A model generated the notes under the pieces. That model worked only from the letters and a program-made list of their open reading frames with translations. It was not told the origin of the DNA and made no database searches. Positions 61,058-64,000 of a DNA stretch of 64,000 bases are shown here, piece by piece. How positions within the stretch are numbered: the stretch's first letter is position 1; each line of letters starts with the position of its first letter. A program made the position numbers and the translations under genes. This stretch comes from a virus. The stretch covers positions 1 through 64,000 of the IMG/VR virus record IMGVR_UViG_3300036791_001907; one strand, written 5' to 3'.

Positions 61058-61278
61058 ACAAGCCCAAGTATCACCGCGGCCAGAAGTTCCGGATGGGCAG
61101 CGACGGCTCGCGGTTCGAGATCGAAAACGTGCGCGTGCTGGCACCCGATGATCGGATCGGCTACGAGCTGCGCGGCCTGGAGGAACCATTCCAGGGAATG
61201 GTTCTTCACCGCTTCGAGGCCGAGCTGGAACGCGACTTCGAGCTGGAGCCAGAACCACCAAAGGAGGACCCAGCGTAA
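61054..61278 (+). CDS. Small SH3-like hypothetical protein
   Basis: SD GAGGA; PKYHRGQKF start. Confidence 0.55.
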   Translation: MNKPKYHRGQKFRMGSDGSRFEIENVRVLAPDDRIGYELRGLEEPFQGMVLHRFEAELERDFELEPEPPKEDPA

Positions 61279-61289
61279 CGATGCAGCGA

Positions 61290-61318
61290 ACCGACGGCCA
61301 GCGGTATATCTGGCGGTG
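61290..61318 (+). repeat. Array leader hairpin, copy 1 (ACCGACGGCCAGCGGTATATCTGGCGGTG)
   Basis: 29-nt repeat also found at 62220 and 62529. Confidence 0.9.
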
Positions 61319-61320
61319 AT

Positions 61321-61688
61321 GGCAGCGATGGGTATGTTGCGGCGGGCCGAGCTACGTCGTGGTAGGTCCGGCAGCTGCGGTTGGGTTCGTCATGGCGAGC
61401 CGAGCATGGGTATGCTCCGTCATGGCAGCCGAGGCATGGTTTGTTGGACCATGGCGAGATGAGCTTAGCCGAGCTTCGGCGAGGCAGCCGGGGTGTGGTT
61501 CGGCGGGCTGTGCGGCGCCACGCCAGGGTTGGGCAGCTCAGATCAGGTGTGGACAGCTCTGGCCGGCAGCGCCAGGTCATGGCAGCCGAGGATAGACCTG
61601 GCCAGCCACGCGGAGCCGTCGTGAGCCGGGGCAGCATTGGCTGGTCACGTCATGACACGGCCAGTCGAGCACGGCCATGTTATGTCAG
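61321..61688 (+). ncRNA. Pentamer-periodic guide-RNA array 1 (7 units; GNY-NN modules)
   Basis: GGCAG anchors at 61321, 61370, 61424, 61483, 61532, 61581, 61630 and GTCAG at 61684. Spacings are 49, 54, 59, 49, 49, 49, 54, all 9+5n. Confidence 0.8.
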
Positions 61689-61706
61689 CATTGAAAGGAG
61701 GTGAAT

Positions 61707-61928
61707 GTGTCAAAGATAGTTCATTTGATCTATCATCGCGTCCCCAACGATCGGATCTCAGACATGAGCGAGGTCGTGGGGGTCGTGACCACGGGCTGGC
61801 AGGATGCCGATGCGATCGTGGATCAGCTCAACGCGCGGGACCCATCCGGATTCGGCTGGCAGCGCGACTACTGGAAAAAGGAGGTTGATGTCATCACCAA
61901 GGATGATGTTCCGCGTCGCACTCCATGA
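61707..61928 (+). CDS. Small hypothetical protein between arrays
   Basis: Perfect SD AAGGAGGT; GTG 61707. Confidence 0.6.
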   Translation: MSKIVHLIYHRVPNDRISDMSEVVGVVTTGWQDADAIVDQLNARDPSGFGWQRDYWKKEVDVITKDDVPRRTP

Positions 61929-61940
61929 CAGGAGACAGCG

Positions 61941-62207
61941 ATGATCTGTCCGGAATGCGGGCATTCCAACCCGGTGATCGCCGCCGAGTGTCTCAAGTGC
62001 CGGTGCCGGTTCCTGGAACACGGTTGTTTTTCCGAGCAGTATCAGCACCCGCTCGTCGGCAAGCGAATCCAGGTCAATACCAGGACCGGCTGCATGGCCG
62101 AAGGGGTCGTGGAGCGGGTGGTGTCTTCACGTTTCGGCCTGCTCGCCTGCCTGGAAGGCGAAAACGGCAGGGCCTGGGCCGTGAACCAATGCACGCCGGT
62201 CACCTGA
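61941..62207 (+). CDS. Zinc-ribbon protein between arrays
   Basis: SD AGGAG; CPECG...CLKC. Confidence 0.65.
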   Translation: MICPECGHSNPVIAAECLKCRCRFLEHGCFSEQYQHPLVGKRIQVNTRTGCMAEGVVERVVSSRFGLLACLEGENGRAWAVNQCTPVT

Positions 62208-62219
62208 CCGGCGTCATGG

Positions 62220-62248
62220 ACCGATGGCCGGCGGTATATCCGGCGGTG
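62220..62248 (+). repeat. Array leader hairpin, copy 2 (ACCGATGGCCGGCGGTATATCCGGCGGTG)
   Basis: Compensatory stem change GCCAG/CTGGC to GCCGG/CCGGC. Confidence 0.9.
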
Positions 62249-62250
62249 GT

Positions 62251-62522
62251 GGCTAGCCCTGGCGACATCAGCAATGGTCGCGCGAGCACTGCCGTGGCGC
62301 GTTCAGGCAGTACAGGCGGGGTGATGCGGGCAACGGCAGGGCCGGGTCCGTCCGGCGATGTCATGCCACGGTATGGCAGCTCAGGTGAGTTCAGATCGGC
62401 CATGCGCGGGCTGGCTGCGGTGACCAGAGGTGGGTCGAGCCGTGGCGAGGCAGCGTAGCCATGGAAGGGTCGGGTCGGTTGAGCTGCGGCGAGCCCAGCT
62501 GACGCAGGGCTGGCCGCGGCAG
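62251..62522 (+). ncRNA. Pentamer-periodic guide-RNA array 2 (4 units)
   Basis: Anchors GGCTAG 62251 and GGCAG 62306, 62375, 62449, 62518; spacings 55 (1-nt insertion), 69, 74, 69. Confidence 0.8.
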
Positions 62523-62528
62523 CAAAGA

Positions 62529-62557
62529 ACCGATGGCCAGCGGTATATCTGGCGGTG
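62529..62557 (+). repeat. Array leader hairpin, copy 3 (ACCGATGGCCAGCGGTATATCTGGCGGTG)
   Basis: Third copy of the 29-nt repeat. Confidence 0.9.
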
Positions 62558-62569
62558 ACGGGAAGCATC

Positions 62570-62628
62570 GGCAGCGACGGAATGGCAGGGCAAGTTGCGT
62601 CTTGTTCCGGCCAGCCAAGTCATGGCTG
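62570..62628 (+). ncRNA. Pentamer-periodic guide-RNA array 3 (single unit matching the adjacent Cas7-like gene)
   Basis: GGCAG 62570 to GGCTG 62624 (54 nt); the NN string matches 62854-62883 at 9 of 10 dinucleotides. Confidence 0.8.
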
Positions 62629-62754
62629 CGTCGTATTGCCGATCACTACGAGGACGATCCGCCTGCGCGGTGGATCGGAACACGTACTGAACACCCTACA
62701 GTTGCAGGGCCGCGGGACGCGCGGCCCGTCTCACTGGCGACAAAGGATGATCCA

Positions 62755-63666
62755 ATGCCAGCCAAGAAAGGTCCGGCCAAGGGGACAGTCCCGGTCAACA
62801 TCCCCCAGCCACAGATCCTCGACTTCGGGATCGGACTCATCGGCGTGACGCCGACGATCTCGAACGCATTCCCGCAGAAGATCCGTGAGAAGCTCGTGGC
62901 TGATCACATGCACATGCCTGAGGCCCTCATCCCCCACGAGGCCAAGGACCCGTGCGCCAACTTCAGCGCGTGCATCCACTACGTCAAGTCCAAGGACGGT
63001 GGGGTCAACTTCGCCATGCCCGGCTCCTCGTTCAAGGGGGCCATGGTCGCGGCGTGCCGGATGACCAACAAGAAGTTGGACATGGCCAGTGCCAAGCAGT
63101 TCTTCCAGGTGATCCCGTTCCGGGTCCAGATGTACGGCGACGAGCCGATCATGTGCGAGCACCGGGTCCGCAACGACAACGGCGGCGTCGACATCCGGCA
63201 CCGGGCCATGTACTGCCGTTGGTCGGTGATCCTGCCGATCCGCTACCACGCGGGGTCGATCTCCAAGGAGTCCCTGATCTACCTGGCGGAGCTGGCCGGC
63301 TTCGGCTGTGGCATCGGTGACTGGCGGATCGCGGCGCCCAAGAGCCCCAACGGGCAGATGGGCGCCTTCCGCGTGGCCCGCGAGGGCGAGATCGTCGGCC
63401 CGGCGTACTCCAAGTGGTGCGCCAAGAACCCGTTCGACTGGGACGAGTTCGAGCAGTACGGCATCGTCCCGCCCGCGCGGGTCGAGTACTACCGCAAGGC
63501 CGCCGAGATGGTTCGCGGCCTGCCGCCCGAGCAGCGGGGCACGCCCAAGAAGGGCAAGAGCCGGAAGGCTGTGCCCACCGCTGCGGCCGCCGCGGCGATC
63601 ATCAACGGCGTCCAGCCCGTCGACGGCCTTGAGCCGCCCGATGACGGCTACGTGCCGCAGCAGTAA
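62755..63666 (+). CDS. Stand-alone Cas7/RAMP-like RNA-binding protein (candidate guide-RNA effector, Vipr-like)
   Basis: SD AAAGGA before ATG 62755. RAMP hallmarks: beta1 IGLIGVTP, MPGSSFKGAM (cf. IPGSSLKGA), thumb region HRVR...DIRHRAMY..W and Gly-rich loop AGFGCGIGDWR...GQMGAFRV. Confidence 0.75.
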   Translation: MPAKKGPAKGTVPVNIPQPQILDFGIGLIGVTPTISNAFPQKIREKLVADHMHMPEALIPHEAKDPCANFSACIHYVKSKDGGVNFAMPGSSFKGAMVAACRMTNKKLDMASAKQFFQVIPFRVQMYGDEPIMCEHRVRNDNGGVDIRHRAMYCRWSVILPIRYHAGSISKESLIYLAELAGFGCGIGDWRIAAPKSPNGQMGAFRVAREGEIVGPAYSKWCAKNPFDWDEFEQYGIVPPARVEYYRKAAEMVRGLPPEQRGTPKKGKSRKAVPTAAAAAAIINGVQPVDGLEPPDDGYVPQQ

Positions 63667-63741
63667 CCACTTCGTGCAGGAGGACGACCGGGGGCCAGGA
63701 TGGCCCCATCTTTCCCGCAACCCTAGCAGCAAGGATCGAAC

Positions 63742-64000
63742 ATGCCATCGGGTGTCAAGAAGAAGTCATCAGCGCCGGCGCCGGCGCTCAAGTACGAGTT
63801 CCGGGCCTGCTTCCGGAGCCCGCTCGATCCCAACGTCGTCGCGGCGCGGCTCGAATGGCTCAGAACCAGACTGAGCCGGGACCCGGAGGGTCAGGACGTC
63901 CTGGAAGACGCCCGGCCCGTCGGCTCGCCGTTGCATGATCACTTCGACTGGAATGACTACGAGGCCGGCGAGAAGCATCGGCTCGGCCAGGCCACGGATC
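63742..64000 (+). CDS. Partner protein of the Cas7-like gene (3'-truncated by the window; absent from the ORF track)
   Basis: SD AAGGA; open to the window end: MPSGVKKK...DVLEDARPVGSPLHDHFDWNDYEAGEKHRLGQA. Confidence 0.7.
   Translation, partial: MPSGVKKKSSAPAPALKYEFRACFRSPLDPNVVAARLEWLRTRLSRDPEGQDVLEDARPVGSPLHDHFDWNDYEAGEKHRLGQATD

What the first reader, a model, noticed from the sequence alone, without database searches (positions are those of the whole stretch)
61290..64000. Phage-encoded RNA-guided system: 5-nt-periodic GNY-NN arrays, a lone Cas7/RAMP-like gene and a partner gene
Seen in sequence: three non-coding tracts, each starting with the same 29-nt hairpin, hold 12 units of the form GGCAG-NN-NN-(GNY-NN)n with n=8-13. 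Unit lengths are 9+5n (49, 54, 59, 69, 74; one unit is 55 through a 1-nt insertion in its anchor). In nearly every module the first base is G and the third is usually C/T, while the last two bases vary freely. Established knowledge: the downstream 303-aa protein has RAMP/Cas7 hallmarks (PGSSFKGA, C-terminal Gly loop), and Cas7-type proteins polymerise on RNA with a fixed nucleotide period. No cas1, cas2, cas3, cas5, cas6 or cas8 and no repeat-spacer array occurs in the window. Inference: each protomer binds one GNY scaffold triplet and displays an NN dinucleotide, so each unit is a programmable guide that is not CRISPR-like. From memory this matches the outline of the recently reported VIPR-type (GGY/NN) viral systems; here the scaffold is relaxed to GNY. 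That attribution needs checking.
Basis: partly seen in the sequence, partly recalled or inferred. Interest (0 to 1): 0.97.

Follow-up and report, generated by a model that had tools for sequence, protein, structure and literature searches.

The report
Phage VIPR locus with staggered guide arrays
A large soil phage carries a VIPR system, a CRISPR-like RNA-guided DNA-silencing weapon first described in 2026 preprints. It has about 60 guide RNAs written in 5-base units, so the finding is real and striking, but it is a new member of a known kind.

Summary
The tracts at 61321-61688, 62246-62522 and 62574-62628 are built of 5-nt modules: G 94%, then G/C/T, then C/T 84%, then two free bases. No other part of the window shows this periodicity. 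The locus runs past the window to about 67870 of the 161-kb virus record and holds about 59 units and 710 modules.

Units have 8-17 modules and end in GGC(A/C)G. Its last G is also the first G of the next unit. This is the 1-nt-overlap "staggered array" of the VIPR preprint (bioRxiv 10.64898/2026.04.26.720920).

A family profile led by the 303-aa protein matches PDB 36pp, "SUSP1 Vipr protein" (E 1e-14), and its model has a Cas7/Csm3 fold. A 177-aa partner gene is syntenic in relatives. Homologous loci also carry pentamer arrays.

The "hairpin" is an H-type pseudoknot: 26 copies, 100% paired, with compensatory changes. It leads each sub-array instead of capping each guide.

One guide (62574-62628) matches the phage's own vipr gene at 18/20 bases (19/22 with its last module), in frame, under the published skip-one-base rule. 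That happened in 1 of 300 shuffled guide sets. No other targets were found, and no RNA data exist.

The scan has met type II VIPR loci before on other DNA. This is a different clade. Verdict: new member of a known kind.

The parts
61290..61314 (+). Leader pseudoknot copy 1 (stem A ACCN/N'GGT, stem B 5 bp, loop GGTATAT overlapping stem A)
   Evidence: Alignment A4 columns 9-33; 26 copies from three phages are 100% paired and 5 of 9 pairs show compensatory changes
61321..61688 (+). vrRNA sub-array 1: 7 staggered units of 9-12 pentamer modules, each ending in GGCAG
61707..61928 (+). Small ORF (about 73 aa) with an AGGAGG ribosome-binding site directly after array 1; not found in the relatives' loci
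61941..62207 (+). Small zinc-ribbon-like ORF (88 aa) between arrays 1 and 2; not found in the relatives' loci
   Evidence: Pfam Zn_Ribbon_1, E 0.006, below the cut-off
62220..62244 (+). Leader pseudoknot copy 2 (stem CCGG/CCGG, compensatory relative to copy 1)
62246..62522 (+). vrRNA sub-array 2: 4 staggered units of 13-15 modules
62529..62553 (+). Leader pseudoknot copy 3
62574..62628 (+). Single vrRNA unit (11 modules) whose NN string reads codon positions 1-2 of the vipr motif TISNAFPQKI
62707..62727 (+). GC-rich hairpin between the last upstream guide and vipr; terminator-like but without a T run
   Evidence: Read from the sequence. The relative L002 has a canonical terminator with a T run at the same place
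62755..63666 (+). vipr: 303-aa RAMP protein; core residues 1-213 plus a clade-specific C-terminal extension
   Evidence: Profile hit to PDB 36pp_D 'SUSP1 Vipr protein', E 1.1e-14. AF2 model pLDDT 89.9. Foldseek top hits are Csm3/Cas7. 1,721 cluster representatives at E<=0.001
62854..62885 (+). Site inside vipr (codons 34-44) matched by guide 62574-62628 under the NNx code; 19/22, in frame, with mismatches at the Ser codon (TCG in the gene, AG in the guide)
63742..64000 (+). Partner gene (vap candidate), 177 aa, continuing to 64275 beyond the window
   Evidence: phrog_15946, unknown function. Syntenic directly after vipr in L001, L002, L050, L053 and L054. AF2 pLDDT 92.5; only weak winged-helix-like matches

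Best explanation
This is a VIPR (Viral Interference Programmable Repeat) system of a large tailed soil phage.

Proposed mechanism:
1. The + strand of the arrays is transcribed in sub-arrays. Each is led by a small H-type pseudoknot and holds 1-9 guide units.
2. Each unit (vrRNA) is a run of 8-17 pentamers. One Vipr protomer sits on each pentamer, buries the constant part (G, G/C/T, pyrimidine) and displays the two free bases.
3. The displayed NN pairs read double-stranded DNA with one target base skipped after each pair. In coding targets the skipped base is the wobble base.
4. The filament silences genes of competing mobile elements.
5. The 4-nt step at GGC(A/C)G resets the register, so neighbouring guides overlap by one G.
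6. One guide is aimed at the conserved TISNAFPQKI motif of vipr genes. It most likely targets rival alleles that encode Ser as AGY, while the phage's own gene uses TCG.

Shown here: the periodic anatomy; homology to the solved Vipr; the RAMP fold; array conservation in relatives; pseudoknot covariation; the guide-to-vipr match.

Inferred by homology: filament assembly, DNA binding and silencing.

Unknown: how units are cut apart, what the pseudoknot does, and all other targets.
For: Protein:
- The A1 profile (70 sequences, window protein first) hits PDB 36pp_D 'SUSP1 Vipr protein', E 1.1e-14, over 179 of 219 profile positions.
- The G-loop C-G-I-G-D-W-R keeps the SUSP1 residues D177, W178 and R179. 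R150 aligns with thumb R138.
- AF2 gives pLDDT 89.9, and 52 PDB matches at E<=0.001. All 50 rows shown are Cas7-type RAMPs.

RNA:
- About 710 modules read G / not-A / Y / N / N, with no information at N4 and N5.
- Units have 8-17 modules, against the published 9-16.
- The phase drops by one at 42 of 48 boundaries. The same holds in relatives L001 (22/25), L002 (29/32) and L024 (37/38). This matches 'staggered arrays ... 1 nt overlapping'.
- 23 of 25 homologous loci have pentamer tracts beside the vipr homologue.
- Strand: G.U pairs in the pseudoknot exist only on the + strand (14/26 at one pair). A strong hairpin terminator closes the last array at about 67842-67870.

Code:
- Guide 62574-62628 matches vipr 62854-62882 at 18/20, in frame on the sense strand. 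A match of 90% or more anywhere in the 161-kb genome arose in 1 of 300 shuffled guide sets, and never inside vipr/vap.
- The same guide reaches 16/20 on the vipr genes of relatives L001 and L050. Skip 0, 2 and 3 gave no hits.
- NN composition correlates best with codon positions 1-2 of the sense strand (r 0.75).
- vipr-targeting vrRNAs are published.

Context:
- IMG/VR virus record; tail sheath and baseplate genes.
- No Cas1, no CRISPR array, no second Vipr.
Against: - No RNA data: the only public run holding the locus is a DNA soil metagenome. Transcription, processing and protein binding are therefore untested.
- Apart from the vipr match, none of the other guides searched has an identified target. 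Nothing reached 85% in the phage's own genome outside the locus (searched slightly different guide sets). Six exact-pattern scans of IMG/VR and JGI metagenomes gave nothing or only chance hits.
- Position 2 of the module is G in only 44%, although the residues that hold G2 in SUSP1 (R138, W178) are conserved. The SUSP1 G1 contact H17 is Asn here. The binding details may therefore differ.
- The pseudoknot precedes sub-arrays instead of capping each guide's 3' end as in SUSP1.
- The partner protein could not be matched to any named vap family.
Confidence: 0.86

Rival explanations
1. The locus is a VIPR system, but the guide at 62574-62628 is an autoregulator. The Vipr filament loaded with it binds codons 34-44 of the phage's own vipr gene and throttles vipr-vap transcription. 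It is not aimed at rivals.
For: The best match of this guide anywhere is the phage's own gene (19/22), against 15-17/22 for the five relatives examined. It is the guide closest to the gene, in a one-unit sub-array just upstream. No better-matching rival allele was found in IMG/VR or JGI metagenomes.
Against: The mismatch is a full Ser codon-family swap (AG against TCG). That fits a guide derived from an AGY allele, and such alleles exist in relatives L001, L050 and L054. The single guides upstream of vipr in L001 and L002 do not match their own vipr. The published systems show no self-targeting at 80% or more, and vipr-targeting guides there score lower on self.
Confidence: 0.2
2. The periodic tracts act as DNA, for example as arrays of protein-binding sites or a recombination substrate, and are not guide RNAs.
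For: No transcript evidence exists. Periodic G tracts could in principle phase a DNA-binding protein.
Against: The leader element covaries as an RNA pseudoknot, with G.U pairs that would be A.C on the other strand. The periodicity is strand-specific: G on the + strand, with no matching C periodicity in this clade. A terminator follows the last array. The adjacent protein is a homologue of an RNA-binding RAMP solved with its pentamer RNA.
Confidence: 0.03
3. The locus is a decayed or inert relic: an orphan Cas7-like gene beside degenerate repeats with no current function.
For: The module consensus is looser than GGY. Several units have off-register modules. No targets were found.
Against: vipr and its partner are intact and syntenic in at least five related phages at 50-60% identity. 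Those phages keep the module frame, the GGCAG junction and the pseudoknot while their NN pairs differ completely. That pattern indicates purifying selection on the scaffold and diversification of the guides.
Confidence: 0.04

Closest known systems
VIPR systems with staggered vrRNA arrays (bioRxiv 10.64898/2026.04.26.720920, Fig. S18 legend and type classification)
   Same: A Vipr RAMP gene with an adjacent accessory gene, on a virus, flanked by long arrays of pentamer repeats. Consecutive guides overlap by 1 nt. The repeat consensus is relaxed relative to GGY (the paper lists NNNGG, YNNNG and NNNNG). Guides have 9-16 repeats.
   Different: I could not see the paper's figures or locus tables, so I cannot say whether this clade is among its 667 systems or which of the seven types it belongs to. 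Close relatives (>50% identity) turned up only in JGI metagenome and Logan read-assembly contigs, not in the species genomes or IMG/VR scanned. The paper says staggered arrays were not among the architectures confirmed by small-RNA sequencing. The consensus here keeps G1 and Y3 and relaxes G2, a form not in the paper's list as written.
Type II VIPR of Escherichia phage SUSP1 (PDB 36pp; bioRxiv 10.64898/2026.04.26.720920, .720927 and 10.64898/2026.10.15.759431)
   Same: Homologous Vipr core with the same G-loop D-W-R and thumb Arg. Pentamer guides on both sides of vipr-vap. A pseudoknot is associated with the guides. The NNx (1-nt skip) code applies. vipr-targeting guides exist.
   Different: SUSP1 has 4 separate guides of about 100 nt, each with strict GGY and its own 3' pseudoknot tail. 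This locus has about 59 abutting guides in 11 sub-arrays, a single pseudoknot ahead of each sub-array, GGC(A/C)G as the only per-guide constant, Asn in place of His17, and a 90-residue C-terminal extension on Vipr.
Cas7 backbone proteins of class 1 CRISPR-Cas (Csm3, type VII Cas7, Cas7-11, Csf2)
   Same: RRM core, glycine-rich loop and thumb. Best structural matches at Foldseek E 2e-5 to 1e-3. One protomer binds per fixed RNA step.
   Different: The step is 5 nt with 3 bases hidden, not 6 nt with 1 flipped. There is no repeat-spacer array, no Cas1 (the only cas family searched) and no other cas gene evident in the locus. Sequence identity is about 10%.

Membership tests
VIPR system | Vipr protein: a RAMP homologous to the described Vipr family | tested here: met
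   Profile A1 against PDB 36pp_D 'SUSP1 Vipr protein', E 1.1e-14. The model has a RAMP fold, with top hits Csm3/Cas7.
VIPR system | RNA-contact residues of the G-loop (D177, W178, R179) and thumb (R138) of SUSP1 Vipr | tested here: met
   G-I-G-D-W-R and R150 are invariant in the clade. The exception is the G1 contact His17, which is Asn37 here.
VIPR system | vrRNA genes: tandem pentamers with a constant triplet and a hypervariable NN pair, at least 4 repeats and typically 9-16 | tested here: met
   About 710 modules read G/B/Y/N/N; units have 8-17 modules. The consensus is relaxed at position 2.
VIPR system | Minimal locus: vipr plus an accessory vap gene, with no cas genes or CRISPR array | tested here: met
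   A conserved 177-aa partner lies directly downstream. No Cas1, no second Vipr and no CRISPR-like repeats. Only Cas1 was searched by profile.
VIPR system | The accessory protein belongs to one of the named families vap1-vap6 | not testable with these tools
   No vap reference sequences are available. The partner is phrog_15946 with unknown function. Only weak winged-helix-like structural matches, Z about 5.2-5.4.
VIPR system | Guides recognise DNA by the 1-nt-skip (NNx) code | tested here: met
   In silico only. Guide 62574-62628 against vipr is 18/20 in frame; 1 of 300 shuffled sets reached this level. It reaches 16/20 on two relatives' vipr genes, and only with skip 1. No targets were found for the other guides.
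VIPR system | vrRNAs are expressed and co-purify with Vipr | not testable with these tools
   Only one DNA run holds the locus, and no RNA run does.
VIPR system | Encoded on a virus or provirus | tested here: met
   IMG/VR record of 161 kb. Tail sheath and baseplate wedge genes lie in the window.
VIPR type II (SUSP1-like) architecture | Each vrRNA carries its own invariant 3' tail with a pseudoknot | tested here: not met
   There are 11 pseudoknots for about 59 units. All 11 are followed by units, but only 7 are preceded by one. The per-unit constant is only GGC(A/C)G.
VIPR staggered-array architecture | Consecutive vrRNAs overlap by 1 nt | tested here: met
   The register drops by one at 42 of 48 boundaries. 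34 junctions show an exact shared G.
CRISPR-Cas (class 1) | A repeat-spacer array and adaptation genes (cas1/cas2) beside the Cas7 protein | tested here: not met
   No Cas1 in the 161-kb record. No CRISPR-like tandem repeats in the window.

The most novel reading that the evidence does not exclude
This clade may be a VIPR subtype that the preprints have not resolved. Guides would be made as pseudoknot-led operons of up to nine abutting units, with the 4-nt GGC(A/C)G step acting as the stop/start or cleavage signal. Only G1 and Y3 of each pentamer would be read by a Vipr that has Asn in place of His17 and a 90-residue C-terminal extension. With about 60 guides whose NN strings look like codon positions 1-2 of proteins, it would be the largest known VIPR arsenal, aimed at protein-level-conserved sites of rival phages.
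Probability: 0.3. Interest if true: 0.7.

Novelty: new member of a known kind. Interest (0 to 1): 0.5.

Why it matters
VIPR is months old as a concept, and only the type II (SUSP1-like) form has been studied at the bench. This locus offers three things.

First, it is a natural, very large example of the staggered architecture that the discovery paper did not confirm experimentally. It has clear sequence punctuation (the GGC(A/C)G junction and a pseudoknot per sub-array) that makes guide biogenesis directly testable.

Second, it shows in silico that the skip-one-base code holds in a distant, GC-rich clade whose second scaffold base is free. This bears on how Vipr reads its RNA and on how compactly guide arrays could be engineered.

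Third, its vipr-directed guide, with a Ser codon-family swap between guide and own gene, is a clean natural case for testing self versus rival discrimination.

Tried and rejected
- Pfam gave nothing for either protein. PHROGs gave only unknown-function families.
- Rfam found no family in the 8.3-kb locus, so no hammerhead or other ribozyme separates the units.
- blastn against GenBank phages found no match.
- Target hunting, own genome: nothing at 85% or more outside the locus, and no enrichment over shuffled guides.
- Target hunting, relatives' guides against this genome: 79 guides gave one 19/22 in-frame hit (L002 guide on 99894-99925). Shuffles reach this level in 17 of 100 sets, so it is only suggestive.
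- Exact NNx pattern scans:
  - The vipr guide (20 specified bases) and the guide at 67057 (26 bases) in IMG/VR gave 0 hits.
  - The 67057 core (20 bases) in JGI metagenomes gave 0 hits.
  - Shorter vipr-guide cores gave 16 hits in IMG/VR and 22 in metagenomes. All were low-GC chance matches without a vipr context.
- The phage's own DnaB-like helicase lacks the ADAVIILYR-like motif that one guide spells.
- The records of relatives L001 and L002 are not held for whole-record searches.
- No RNA holder is listed among the sequencing runs.
- Partner-protein fold: Foldseek against PDB gave nothing at E<=0.001. VIA-align gave only a generic helical hairpin (Z about 6) and weak winged-helix rows (Z about 5.2-5.4). 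No family could be assigned.
- The sigma-70 promoter scan found no consensus promoter ahead of the pseudoknots.
- No complex prediction was run, because I make no claim that Vipr and its partner bind.
Full report
**What is in the sequence**

Lag-5, 10 and 15 autocorrelation of G is 0.2-0.3 inside them. The 14 highest-scoring 200-nt windows of the 64-kb window all fall at 61251-62651. Phase tracking shows 5 of 5 G in register over long runs, with the register dropping by one base at each unit boundary.

Over about 710 modules the composition is as follows:
- Position 1: G 94%.
- Position 2: G 44, C 34, T 16, A 6.
- Position 3: C 55, T 29, A 12, G 5.
- Positions 4 and 5: near uniform, 0.05 and 0.01 bits.

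Its anchor GGCAG is better read as the last module of a unit, a canonical GGY-NN. The final G of that module is also the first G of the next unit. At 34 exact junctions the consensus is G-G-C-(A 73% / C 26%)-G, followed by C or T.

**The locus is larger than the window**

The window is the first 64 kb of a 161,481-bp IMG/VR record. The same periodic sequence continues at 64285-65922 and 66240-67840. In all there are about 59 units of 8-17 modules, mostly 10-14. They are grouped into 11 sub-arrays.

A 10-bp GC-rich hairpin terminator on the + strand closes the last array at about 67842-67870, and the next gene is on the other strand. Three small ORFs with good ribosome-binding sites follow directly after array ends: 61707-61928, 61941-62207 and 65937-66152 of the record. 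The last two are zinc-ribbon-like.

**The protein**

The 303-aa product of 62755-63666 has no Pfam family and falls in an unannotated PHROG. An exhaustive search finds 1,721 cluster representatives at E<=0.001. Most are 200-240 aa and match residues 1-213, so residues 214-303 are a clade-specific extension.

A profile of 70 family members with the window protein first matches PDB 36pp_D, deposited as "SUSP1 Vipr protein", at E 1.1e-14. The AlphaFold model is confident (pLDDT 89.9). Its best PDB matches are all Cas7-type RAMPs: Csm3, type VII Cas7, Cas7-11 and Csf2.

The residues that the cryo-EM preprint names as RNA contacts are mostly kept:
- G-loop D177, W178 and R179 correspond to D189, W190 and R191.
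- Thumb R138 corresponds to R150.
- The G1 contact His17 is Asn37 in this clade. It is His in most of the wider family.

**The partner gene**

The gene at 63742-64275 (177 aa) follows vipr in every close relative examined and has 19 detectable homologues. Its model is confident (pLDDT 92.5). It matches nothing significantly. There are only weak winged-helix-like rows for residues about 12-128 and a generic helical hairpin for 127-177. A DNA-binding accessory protein would fit what the preprint says of vap genes, but I could not test that.

**Relatives**

Close relatives (50-60% identity) occur only in JGI metagenome and Logan read-assembly contigs, some over 200 kb. The one public run that holds the window's own DNA is a soil metagenome. 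The genes upstream of the locus are syntenic, so the system sits at a fixed place in a lineage of large tailed phages.

Relatives L001, L002 and L053 keep the module frame, the GGCAG junction, the one-base register drop and the leader element, while their NN pairs are unrelated. L050 and L054 also carry pentamer tracts beside vipr; their junctions were not examined. Of 25 more distant homologous loci, 23 have pentamer tracts next to the vipr homologue.

**The leader element**

The "29-nt hairpin" is an H-type pseudoknot. In 26 copies from three phages, a 5-bp stem encloses a loop with the invariant GGTATA(T/C). The first four loop bases (N'GGT) pair with ACCN lying upstream of the stem. All 234 cells are standard pairs, and 5 of 9 pairs show compensatory changes. 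Sliding the partners by one to three columns drops pairing to 26-51%. G.U pairs are frequent and would be A.C on the other strand, so the folded molecule is + strand RNA.

All 11 copies in this genome are followed by units, but only 7 are preceded by one. It therefore behaves as a sub-array leader. It is not the per-guide 3' tail of the SUSP1 type. Rfam finds no ribozyme or other known family in the locus.

**Comparison with what is known**

The VIPR preprints describe:
- a viral Cas7-like protein that forms a filament on RNA made of GGY-NN pentamers, hides GGY and uses NN to read dsDNA with one base skipped;
- seven types, relaxed repeat consensuses and "staggered arrays" in which vrRNAs overlap by 1 nt;
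- guides aimed at rival elements, including rival vipr genes.

Every feature I could test fits, except the type II tail architecture. This scan has already met type II VIPR loci on other DNA. The present locus belongs to a different, GC-rich clade.

**Does the code apply here?**

[quoted passage not shown] The match is on the sense strand and in frame, so the skipped bases are wobble positions. With the order of NN pairs shuffled within each guide, the whole set of 44 guides gave a match of 90% or more anywhere in the genome in 1 of 300 trials. It never did so inside vipr/vap.

The site encodes TISNAFPQKI, which includes Asn37. The only fully mismatched pair is at Ser: AG in the guide, TCG in the gene. 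Both Ser codon families occur at this codon among relatives. It is AGC in L001, L050 and L054, and TCG in L002 and L053. The guide reaches the preprint's 80% threshold on the vipr genes of L001 and L050, and only with skip 1.

I read it as a rival-directed guide whose own-gene copy is shielded by the codon swap. Autoregulation remains possible, because the own gene is still the best match found.

NN composition also resembles codon positions 1-2 of the sense strand (r 0.75, against -0.16 to 0.62 for other frames). This is weak support.

**What remains open**

- No other target was found, neither in the phage's own genome nor in public collections by exact-pattern scans.
- One guide of relative L002 matches a gene of this phage at 19/22 in frame, but shuffles reach that level in 17% of trials.
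- No RNA data exist.
- How abutting units are separated, what the pseudoknot does, why position 2 is free although its SUSP1 contacts are kept, and what the partner and the C-terminal extension do are all unknown.

**Verdict**

The system is a new member of the recently described VIPR kind, of the staggered-array form, with an unusually large arsenal and clear punctuation. That makes it a good subject for working out guide biogenesis. It is not a new category.

Noticed in passing
L024:1850-4700 (IMGVR_UViG_3300047313_000057): A distant Vipr relative (28% identity) has 40 staggered units that also end in GGCAG. Its modules read G-(C/G)-A-N-N, with a purine (A 64%) at position 3 where VIPR is defined by a pyrimidine. 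Its NN composition fits the antisense strand of codons instead of the sense strand.
   Followed up: partly
window 61941-62207 and genome record 65937-66152 (L005:5438-5653): Two small Cys-rich, zinc-ribbon-like ORFs, plus a third small ORF at 61707-61928, sit between arrays. Each has a ribosome-binding site immediately after the last guide unit, as if co-transcribed with the array. They are absent from the relatives' loci.
   Followed up: partly
window 63394-63666 (Vipr residues 214-303): A clade-specific C-terminal extension of Vipr: confidently modelled helices, a Lys-rich linker and a conserved end motif (G-Y-x-P-Q-E). It is absent from the about 200-aa majority of the family and from SUSP1 Vipr.
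   Followed up: no
genome record 99894-99925 (L048:495-526): A guide of the related phage L002 (unit at L002:8682) matches this phage's 329-aa gene of unknown function at 19/22 under the NNx code, in frame on the sense strand. Shuffled guides reach this level in 17 of 100 sets.
   Followed up: yes
L050:2707-3537; L001:8295-8900: Gene callers place 'proteins' of 200-276 aa on top of the pentamer arrays in relatives' contigs. These ORFs are probably artefacts of GC-rich periodic sequence.
   Followed up: no
genome record 67057-67126 and other guides: Read as codon positions 1-2, several guides spell protein-like strings. One resembles the D-x-V-x-x-L-Y-R motif of DnaB/RecA-type ATPases. The phage's own DnaB-like helicase (112150-113826) lacks it.
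   Followed up: partly
L002:4920-4985 and window 62707-62727: A terminator hairpin separates the single upstream guide from vipr. In L002 it is canonical with a T run; in the window it is GC-rich with no T run. This suggests the upstream guides are transcribed apart from vipr-vap.
   Followed up: no
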